Shown piece after piece: positions 45,488 to 45,722 of a stretch of DNA of 49,111 nucleotides (position 1 is its first letter; each line of letters begins with the position of its first letter). Source of the stretch: a virus (taxonomy: Duplodnaviria > Heunggongvirae > Uroviricota > Caudoviricetes); IMG/VR virus record IMGVR_UViG_2529292911_000007; one strand, given 5' to 3'. The translations under genes and the position numbers were made by a program. The notes under the pieces are model-generated. The model was not told the DNA's origin. It saw nothing but the letters and a program-made list of their open reading frames with translations, and searched no databases.

Positions 45488-45722
45488 GTGATGGAGCCCT
45501 GGTTGAAATGAAGCGTGAACTGATTGATGACTGAACAAAAGTTGGACTGGAAGATGCTCGCGCACAGGGAGGAATTGGTGGACGTCGTCCTAAACTTACA
45601 TCAGAACAATGGGCGCAGGCCGGGCGATTAATTGCATCAAAAGTCCCGCGTCAGAAGGTGGCGATCATCTATGATATTGGTGTATCGACTTTGTATAAGA
45701 GGTTTCCAGCCAGGATTATATA
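45488..45722 (+). pseudogene. Serine DNA invertase (Pin/Hin/Gin family) C-terminal remnant with in-frame stop
   Basis: Translation GALVEMKRELIDD*TKVGLEDARAQGGIGGRRPKLTSEQWAQAGRLIASKVPRQKVAIIYDIGVSTLYKRFPARII matches the resolvase/invertase HTH C-terminus; the N-terminal catalytic domain is missing. Confidence 0.6.

What the first reader, a model, noticed from the sequence alone, without database searches (positions are those of the whole stretch)
45488..45722. Decayed Pin/Hin-type DNA invertase next to the tail-fibre region
Only the C-terminal HTH part of a serine invertase survives, with an in-frame TGA. Together with the tfa remnant this suggests an ancestral invertible tail-fibre switch (as in Mu, P1 and e14) that was lost when the fibre module was replaced.
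Basis: partly seen in the sequence, partly recalled or inferred. Interest (0 to 1): 0.35.

Follow-up and report, generated by a model that had tools for sequence, protein, structure and literature searches.

The report
Dead Pin-type DNA invertase gene remnant
This is the broken, non-functional leftover of a Pin/Gin-type DNA-flipping enzyme gene in the cargo end of a lambda-like E. coli prophage; NCBI already annotates it as a pseudogene in hundreds of genomes, so it is ordinary.

Summary
Homology to Pin/Gin/Hin/Cin invertases runs from 45290 to the stop at 45721-45723. This corresponds to Gin residues 41-182 (E 6e-58) and matches both Pfam Resolvase and HTH_7.

The gene is dead:
- The first ~40 codons, including the catalytic serine, are missing.
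- There are three in-frame stops (TAA 45330, TAG 45405, TGA 45532).
- There are three frameshifts.

The remnant is mosaic. Its 5' part is only ~60% identical in DNA to pinE. Its 3' part is 84-88% identical and shares a 128-bp 3' flank with pinE genes of Mu-type prophages.

No pix/gix-type crossover site exists anywhere in the window, although the same pattern finds both sites in K-12 e14. No inverted fibre or tfa copy survives.

The window is a lambdoid prophage at icd. NCBI's PGAP pipeline annotates the same pseudogene at >=99% identity in about 240 of 5426 complete E. coli genomes.

The 5' truncation abuts a truncated XRE/O-acetyltransferase cassette, not the fibre module. The tfa scar also follows S74-type fibres in prophages that have no pin. 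An ancestral fibre switch is therefore possible but not demonstrated. Interest is low.

The parts
45290..45723 (+). Pin/Gin-type (Din-family) serine invertase pseudogene, equivalent to codons ~41-184. It carries three in-frame stops (45330-32 TAA, 45405-07 TAG, 45532-34 TGA) and three frameshifts (G-run 45418-24, T-run 45470-77, ~45495). The native stop is at 45721-23.
   Evidence: PGAP annotates the same stretch (window 45277-45723) as 'recombinase family protein; frameshifted; internal stop; missing N-terminus'.
45290..45470 (+). 5' part of the remnant (catalytic-domain residues ~41-100), from a divergent lineage. It is ~58-60% identical in DNA to pinE, and no relative above ~76% amino-acid identity was found.
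45471..45722 (+). 3' part of the remnant (alpha-E helix and HTH_7, with HTH_7 at ~45580-45711).
45255..45289 (.). Junction of unassigned origin between the 5'-truncated XRE-like gene and the 5'-truncated invertase gene, which lie head to head.
   Evidence: Invertase homology starts at ~45289. XRE homology to Serratia phage BZS1 ends at ~45254.
45024..45266 (-). Small XRE-like gene (phrog_20491) with no start codon. It is the upstream gene of the O-acetyltransferase cassette.
43923..45010 (-). Low-GC Acyl_transf_3 (OafA/YrhL-like) O-acetyltransferase. It is split in the window by one missing T at ~44813 relative to the intact 362-aa gene in strain MRE162.
43485..43617 (+). C-terminal scar of a tail-fibre assembly gene (tfa), in the same orientation as stf.
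   Evidence: Pfam Caudo_TAP E 2.7e-11
40166..43447 (+). Side tail fibre gene (lambda-type N-terminus plus a Peptidase_S74 intramolecular chaperone C-terminus).
45723..45850 (+). Conserved 128-bp sequence with a hairpin at 45724-45760. It recurs after pinE or after tfa in other prophages and near the ends of Rac and Qin.
46047..49111 (+). McrBC-like type IV restriction module (an AAA_5 ATPase, and McrC cut by the window end). It lies between the remnant and attR (icdC) in related genomes.

Best explanation
This is a non-functional pseudogene of a Din-family (Pin/Gin/Cin/Hin) serine DNA invertase. It lies in the non-essential cargo region, between the tail-fibre genes and attR, of a lambda-like prophage integrated in icd of E. 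coli.

Shown:
- The gene lacks its first ~40 codons, which carry the nucleophilic serine, and it lacks its own upstream region.
- Three stop codons and three frameshifts interrupt it.
- It has no 26-bp crossover sites to act on anywhere in the window.
It can therefore neither be made nor invert anything, and the fibre gene is fixed.

Also shown: the remnant is a mosaic. The 5' part comes from a divergent invertase lineage with no close living relative. The 3' part, together with 128 bp of 3' flank, is close to pinE genes of Mu-type-tail prophages.

Inferred:
- One deletion or illegitimate join removed both 5' ends and everything between the head-to-head XRE/O-acetyltransferase cassette and the invertase gene.
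- The fragment most likely entered the lambdoid genome by recombination with an e14/Mu-type prophage at the shared flank sequence. I put this at about 0.5. The alternative, about 0.2, is that it descends from an invertible fibre of this phage itself.
For: Family assignment: Pfam Resolvase and HTH_7; PHROG DNA invertase; Gin 3UJ3 residues 41-182, E 6e-58; 77-80% amino-acid identity to E. coli Pin proteins.

Lesions: read directly from the sequence and from the alignment to pinE.

Relaxed constraint:
- The remnant has substitutions at positions that are invariant or nearly so in the family.
- In the 3' part, non-synonymous codon changes (12) are at least as many as synonymous ones (9), and differences are spread 7/5/12 over the three codon positions.
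- Copies in different strains differ by extra indels (T7/T8 at 45470; a 1-nt deletion at 45534 in WCHEC020031).

No crossover sites: 0 hits in the window against exactly pixL and pixR in e14 with the same pattern. No suitable inverted repeats.

Mosaic structure: sliding-window identity. The C-terminus and the 3' flank match the TUM9754 pinE.

Context: a lambdoid prophage at icd. About 240 of 5426 complete E. coli genomes carry the same pseudogene at >=99% identity, annotated as such by PGAP.

Junction with the truncated XRE/O-acetylase cassette.
Against: Nothing argues against pseudogene status.

The origin sub-claim is weaker:
- No donor carrying the same 5' lineage was found.
- Lambdoid Rac and Qin do carry pin genes next to tfa, although of another subfamily and in the opposite orientation. 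A lambdoid origin therefore cannot be excluded.
- Some of the homopolymer indels could be assembly errors in the window or in the compared genomes.
Confidence: 0.88

Rival explanations
1. The remnant is the vestige of an invertible tail-fibre switch (stf/tfa, inverted tfa'/stf', then pin) that belonged to this same lambdoid phage lineage. The switch was destroyed when the fibre C-terminus was replaced by an S74-type module.
For: The remnant lies just downstream of stf/tfa and points the same way, as in Mu and e14. All intact close relatives adjoin invertible fibre segments. Both the fibre and tfa show signs of module replacement.
Against: No crossover site or inverted fibre/tfa fragment remains. 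The tfa scar recurs with S74 fibres in prophages without pin. The truncation point abuts the XRE/acetyltransferase cassette, not the fibre module. All listed matching invertases in sequenced phages are in Mu-, P1- or P2-type phages or named myoviruses. The three lambdoid relatives inspected lack pin.
Confidence: 0.2
2. A layered fossil. The invertase remnant, the McrBC module and icdC are what is left of an older e14-type occupant of the icd site. A lambdoid phage later integrated in tandem, and deletions fused the two elements.
For: In K-12 e14 the right end reads pinE, mcrA, icdC. This is the same order as the window's invertase remnant, McrBC module and icdC. The invertase is the only e14-like DNA in the window. 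From general knowledge, e14 and lambdoid phage 21 use the same icd attachment site.
Against: There is no internal icd fragment or second att relic in the window. No e14-type element with this McrBC cargo was seen among 5426 genomes. In relatives without pin, the McrBC module follows tfa directly.
Confidence: 0.12
3. The remnant still has a function, for example as an HTH-only DNA-binding peptide or as a cis-acting promoter or enhancer for the neighbouring acetyltransferase or McrBC genes.
For: It is conserved at >=99% in about 240 genomes. The XRE/acetyltransferase operon has lost its own upstream region, so transcription would have to start inside the remnant.
Against: The conservation equals that of all flanking DNA, which points to recent common ancestry. 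No ORF of 30 aa or more with a start codon lies in the HTH frame after the TGA. Copies accumulate further indels. Promoter-like sites are not enriched (10 found against 9.3 expected). Antisense ORFs match no family.
Confidence: 0.03

Closest known systems
PinE of the e14 element and pinE-type genes of Mu-type-tail prophages (for example WP_015364430.1 in E. coli TUM9754)
   Same: Same Din subfamily. The 3' part is 84-88% identical in DNA. The remnant ends in PARII, which resembles the PARVI read from the aligned TUM9754 pinE DNA. The 128-bp 3' flank is homologous at about 78% identity. The gene points the same way as the upstream fibre genes and is followed by restriction or defence cargo.
   Different: The remnant is truncated and multiply disrupted, and its 5' part is only ~60% identical. 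It has no pixL/pixR and no invertible stf/tfa segment. Its host element is a lambda-type siphovirus prophage that shares no other DNA with e14.
Gin invertase of phage Mu (PDB 3UJ3, 4M6F)
   Same: The remnant aligns colinearly to Gin residues 41-182, including KLDRLGRS, the alpha-E helix and the HTH. By my hand count, the 5' part is slightly closer to Gin than to PinE in protein (about 70% against 63% over 43 residues).
   Different: DNA identity is only about 65-68%. The catalytic serine region is absent, as are the 5' coding bases that, from general knowledge, hold the Fis-dependent enhancer in gin, hin and cin. There are no gix sites.
PinR and PinQ of the lambdoid cryptic prophages Rac and Qin
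   Same: They are serine recombinase genes placed immediately after stf-tfa in lambdoid prophages. PinQ is reported to invert the 1797-bp e14 P segment in trans (PMC12529663).
   Different: They are a different, much more divergent subfamily, convergent with tfa rather than co-directional, and intact.
RefSeq/PGAP pseudogene annotation of this same locus (for example PX811_RS13170 in E. coli MRE162)
   Same: It is the same sequence at >=99% identity, annotated 'recombinase family protein; frameshifted; internal stop; incomplete; missing N-terminus'.
   Different: None. This is the same feature, already on record.

Membership tests
Din-family serine DNA invertase (Hin/Gin/Cin/Pin), as a functional enzyme | Complete resolvase-type N-terminal catalytic domain (PF00239) | tested here: not met
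   Only profile positions 48-144 of 145 are matched. Homology begins at codon ~41.
Din-family serine DNA invertase (Hin/Gin/Cin/Pin), as a functional enzyme | Nucleophilic serine (Ser9/10) in the N-terminal YxRVS motif | tested here: not met
   The region is absent. The alignment to PinE and Gin starts after it.
Din-family serine DNA invertase (Hin/Gin/Cin/Pin), as a functional enzyme | C-terminal HTH_7 DNA-binding domain | tested here: met
   PF02796 E 7.5e-13, profile positions 1-44 of 45. The Hin HTH (PDB 1HCR) also matches.
Din-family serine DNA invertase (Hin/Gin/Cin/Pin), as a functional enzyme | Uninterrupted reading frame of about 184-196 codons | tested here: not met
   Three stops and three frameshifts. 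PGAP flags it as a pseudogene.
Din-type invertible tail-fibre switch (Mu G, P1 C, e14 P segments) | Two inverted 26-bp crossover sites (gix/cix/pix) flanking a segment next to the invertase gene | tested here: not met
   The pattern TTNTCNNAAACCNNGGTTTNNGANAA with up to 3 mismatches gives 0 hits in the window and exactly pixL and pixR in K-12 e14.
Din-type invertible tail-fibre switch (Mu G, P1 C, e14 P segments) | Alternative fibre C-termini and tfa genes in opposite orientations | tested here: not met
   There is a single stf and a single co-directional tfa scar. No fibre-like or tfa-like reading frame is seen on the minus strand of 43440-43930.
Din-type invertible tail-fibre switch (Mu G, P1 C, e14 P segments) | Fis-dependent recombinational enhancer inside the 5' coding region of the invertase gene | not testable with these tools
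   The first ~120 coding bases, where from general knowledge the enhancer lies in gin, hin and cin, are deleted. Absence is inferred, not measured.
e14 element | Integration in icd, with an icdC duplicate at the right end | tested here: met
   Near-identical copies in MRE162 and WCHEC020031 lie between icd/int and icdC-iraM.
e14 element | e14 gene content (lit, intE, ymf genes, Mu-type baseplate/stfP/tfaP, mcrA) | tested here: not met
   blastn of the whole window against K-12 e14 finds only the invertase stretch. The structural genes are lambda-type, 96-97% identical to Escherichia phages PhiR70_1 and Kati.

The most novel reading that the evidence does not exclude
The invertase remnant together with the McrBC module at the attR end is a fossil of an earlier e14-type occupant of the icd site. 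A lambdoid phage was later grafted onto it. Successive prophages at one attachment site would then leave a layered record in which the defence cargo is kept while the phage is replaced. The pinE-like 3' half may in addition have been refreshed by gene conversion from intact pin paralogues.
Probability: 0.12. Interest if true: 0.3.

Novelty: already known. Interest (0 to 1): 0.08.

Why it matters
It matters little. The remnant documents ordinary mosaic decay in the cargo region of a common E. coli prophage. It also shows that a tfa scar next to a recombinase fragment is not in itself evidence for a lost invertible fibre. Its practical value is for annotation:
- The remnant spans 45290-45723, not only the HTH.
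- The fibre of this prophage is not phase-variable.
- The neighbouring O-acetyltransferase cassette and McrBC module are the biologically live cargo.

Tried and rejected
1. Crossover sites. I searched for the exact pixR sequence, the AAACCNNGGTTT core and the 26-bp degenerate consensus, and I scanned for inverted repeats. Nothing turned up in the window, while the control on e14 worked.

2. A closer intact relative.
- E. coli complete genomes give either >=99% (the same pseudogene) or <=72% identity for the 5' part.
- The phage collection gives 87% at best, and only for the 3' part.
- The 5.8-billion-protein search gives 78-80% for full-length intact proteins and up to 82-83% for partial sequences.
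- The GTDB genome scan with the 5' part gives 76% amino-acid identity at best, in Salmonella.

3. Surviving N-terminal codons at 45256-45289 with internal deletions. The pairwise MAFFT alignment hinted at this. BLAST homology starts at 45289 and the multi-sequence alignment does not reproduce it, so I rejected the idea.

4. A tRNA or other RNA in the tRNA-like stretch near 45830-45860. ARAGORN and Rfam find nothing.

5. The hairpin after the stop as an intrinsic terminator. It has no U-tract, the scan finds none, and the fold z-score is only -1.67.

6. Antisense ORFs 45227-45463 and 45637-45810. They match no NCBIfam family.

7. A relic of tandem integration (an internal icd fragment). None was found.

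8. The 305 bp between the tfa scar and the acetyltransferase, as possible remains of inverted tfa'/stf'. No such reading frame exists. The only hit is weak similarity to unannotated DNA near ISEc1/Rhs in another strain.

Full report
**What is at the coordinates.**
Reading 45201-45763 in the three forward frames shows invertase-like peptide spread over all three frames:
- ERPRLKCALQSLI*GDTLIVWKLDRLGRSRKHLIILTE*LRVRG (frame of 45291)
- FRSLTGNIDTSTSM
- FFHVM
- GALVEMKRELIDD*TKVGLEDARAQGGIGGRRPKLTSEQWAQAGRLIASKVPRQKVAIIYDIGVSTLYKRFPARII*

It holds one in-frame TGA (45532-45534), and the stop codon is at 45721-45723.

The joined peptide matches several references:

| Reference | Result |
|---|---|
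| Pfam Resolvase | E 6.3e-18, profile positions 48-144 of 145 |
| Pfam HTH_7 | E 7.5e-13 |
| PHROG 'DNA invertase' | E 4.3e-43 |
| Gin of phage Mu (PDB 3UJ3) | residues 41-182, E 6e-58 |
| E. coli Pin proteins | 77-80% identity |

However, 'only the HTH part survives' understates it. About 145 of 184 codons are recognisable, from 45290 to 45723.

**State of the gene.**
I aligned the remnant to K-12 pinE. The lesions are:
- The first ~40 codons are gone. These carry the YVRVS motif with the nucleophilic serine.
- TAA at 45330-45332.
- TAG at 45405-45407.
- A 2-nt deletion at the G-run 45418-45424.
- A 1-nt insertion in the T-run 45470-45477.
- A 1-nt deletion near 45495.
- TGA at 45532-45534.

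Several positions that are invariant or nearly so in the family are substituted. In the 3' part, non-synonymous codon changes (12) are at least as many as synonymous ones (9). Copies in other strains differ by further indels: T7 against T8 at 45470, and a 1-nt deletion at 45534 in WCHEC020031. After the TGA there is no start codon that would give an HTH-only product of 30 aa or more. This is a dead gene drifting neutrally.

**Mosaic structure.**
- The stretch 45290-45470 is only 58-60% identical in DNA to pinE genes.
- The stretch 45471-45722 is 84-88% identical, and up to 95% in 60-nt windows.
- The best match for the 3' part is the pinE of a Mu-type-tail prophage in strain TUM9754. The similarity includes a similar C-terminal ending and continues through 128 bp downstream of the stop.
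- The 5' part still shows a coding-type pattern of differences, 25/12/34 over the three codon positions. It therefore looks like a separate invertase lineage rather than extra decay.
- No close relative of the 5' part was found in 5426 E. coli genomes, in the phage collection, in 5.8 billion proteins or in GTDB species genomes (best 76% amino-acid identity).

**Surroundings.**
The window is a lambda-type prophage. Its structural genes are 96-97% identical to Escherichia phages PhiR70_1, Kati and others. Near-identical copies in other strains place it in the icd gene, the e14 site: int lies next to icd on the left, and icdC-iraM lie on the right. The right end reads as follows:

| Coordinates | Strand | Feature |
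|---|---|---|
| 36024-39437 | + | J |
| 39508-40107 | + | lom |
| 40166-43447 | + | stf, with a lambda-type N-terminus and a Peptidase_S74 intramolecular chaperone C-terminus |
| 43485-43617 | + | C-terminal tfa scar |
| 43923-45010 | - | low-GC Acyl_transf_3 O-acetyltransferase |
| 45024-45266 | - | XRE-like gene with no start codon (phrog_20491) |
| 45290-45723 | + | invertase remnant |
| 45723-45850 | + | conserved 128-bp sequence |
| 46047-49111 | + | McrBC-like module, cut by the window end |

In relatives, attR follows the McrBC module. Serratia phage BZS1 carries the same XRE plus O-acetylase pair right after its tail-fibre genes. The pair is therefore a recognisable lysogenic-conversion cassette. 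The XRE gene and the invertase gene lie head to head and both lack their 5' ends. The simplest reading is that one deletion or illegitimate join at 45255-45289 removed both starts and whatever lay between them.

**Testing the 'lost invertible fibre switch' idea.**
- *Crossover sites.* A 26-bp degenerate crossover-site pattern finds exactly pixL and pixR in K-12 e14. With up to three mismatches it finds nothing in the 49-kb window. The exact pixR sequence, the core pattern and an inverted-repeat scan also give nothing useful.
- *Inverted copies.* No inverted stf' or tfa' fragment is present.
- *The tfa scar.* It points the same way as stf, and at 87-94% identity it directly follows S74-type fibres in other lambdoid prophages. 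The two examples inspected have no pin. It marks the replacement of a tfa-dependent fibre tip by a self-chaperoning one and is independent of the invertase.
- *Lambdoid relatives.* Lambdoid prophages at icd in strains RM10410 and NDM1 have a full tfa followed directly by the same 128-bp sequence and the McrBC module, with no pin.
- *Sequenced phages.* Every listed match to the remnant is in a Mu-, P1- or P2-type phage or one named as a myovirus (Mu, D108, P1, D6, pro483, vB_EcoM-689R6, Yersinia vB_YpM phages); none is in a lambdoid phage.
- *K-12 e14.* It shares no DNA with the window other than the invertase stretch.
- *In favour of the idea.* All intact pinE-type genes inspected sit directly 3' of invertible fibre segments and point the same way as the fibre genes. 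The fragment's ultimate ancestor almost certainly served such a switch somewhere.

Whether that switch was in this phage lineage cannot be shown. The 128-bp flank recurs after tfa, after pinE and near the ends of Rac and Qin. It offers an obvious site for homologous exchange between prophages. I therefore favour import of the fragment (about 0.5) over a native switch (about 0.2) or a fused older e14-type occupant (about 0.12).

**Comparison with what is known.**
- The feature descends from the Pin/Gin/Cin/Hin family but fails every functional criterion except the HTH domain (see the membership table).
- It is not the PinR/PinQ type found next to tfa in Rac and Qin. Those genes are strongly divergent and convergent with tfa.
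- A recent paper reports that PinQ inverts the 1797-bp e14 P segment in trans and thereby blocks T2 adsorption (PMC12529663).
- PGAP already annotates this exact stretch as a frameshifted, internally stopped, N-terminally incomplete 'recombinase family protein'. About 240 of 5426 complete E. coli genomes carry it at >=99% identity.

**Verdict.**
This is a real but ordinary and already-annotated pseudogene. The evolutionary story is plausible in outline but is not supported by the specific evidence offered (the tfa scar), and no trace of a switch remains. Interest is low (0.08) and novelty is 'already known'.

Noticed in passing
window 43923-45010 (- strand), T-run near 44813: The Acyl_transf_3 O-acetyltransferase is split into 74-aa and 288-aa ORFs by one missing T in a homopolymer, relative to the intact 362-aa gene in strain MRE162. 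This could be decay, phase variation or an assembly error. In strain PM4 an IS1 interrupts the same gene.
   Followed up: partly
window 45024-45266 (- strand): A small XRE-like gene (phrog_20491, E 2.8e-19) has no start codon. An XRE plus LPS O-acetylase pair lies right after the tail-fibre genes of Serratia phage vB_SspM_BZS1, so this looks like a mobile lysogenic-conversion cassette.
   Followed up: partly
window 43485-43617: A C-terminal tfa scar sits directly after an S74-type (self-chaperoning) side tail fibre gene. The same scar follows S74 fibres in unrelated lambdoid prophages (L012, L013). It looks like a recurrent recombination joint.
   Followed up: yes
window 45723-45850: A 128-bp conserved sequence has a hairpin at 45724-45760 and a stretch that resembles a tRNA T-arm and acceptor on the minus strand (~45822-45850). 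It recurs after pinE, after tfa, and near the ends of Rac and Qin. No tRNA or Rfam family is detected. It may be a module-boundary or old att-type sequence.
   Followed up: partly
window 16815-18028 (ALIL pseudoknot at 17096-17212): An IS3-family insertion sequence lies inside the prophage: two overlapping ORFs plus the ALIL frameshift pseudoknot (121 bits). It may have inactivated the prophage.
   Followed up: no
window 46047-49111: A McrBC-like type IV restriction module lies at the attR end. McrC reaches the NCBIfam equivalog cut-off (346 bits). The AAA_5 ATPase has a ~380-aa N-terminal region with no Pfam match. The module occupies the position that mcrA holds in K-12 e14.
   Followed up: partly
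L001, L007, L008 (related E. coli genomes): In many strains the same icd prophage is heavily eroded by IS1-, IS5- or IS3-flanked deletions, yet the invertase remnant and the McrBC module at the right end are retained.
   Followed up: no
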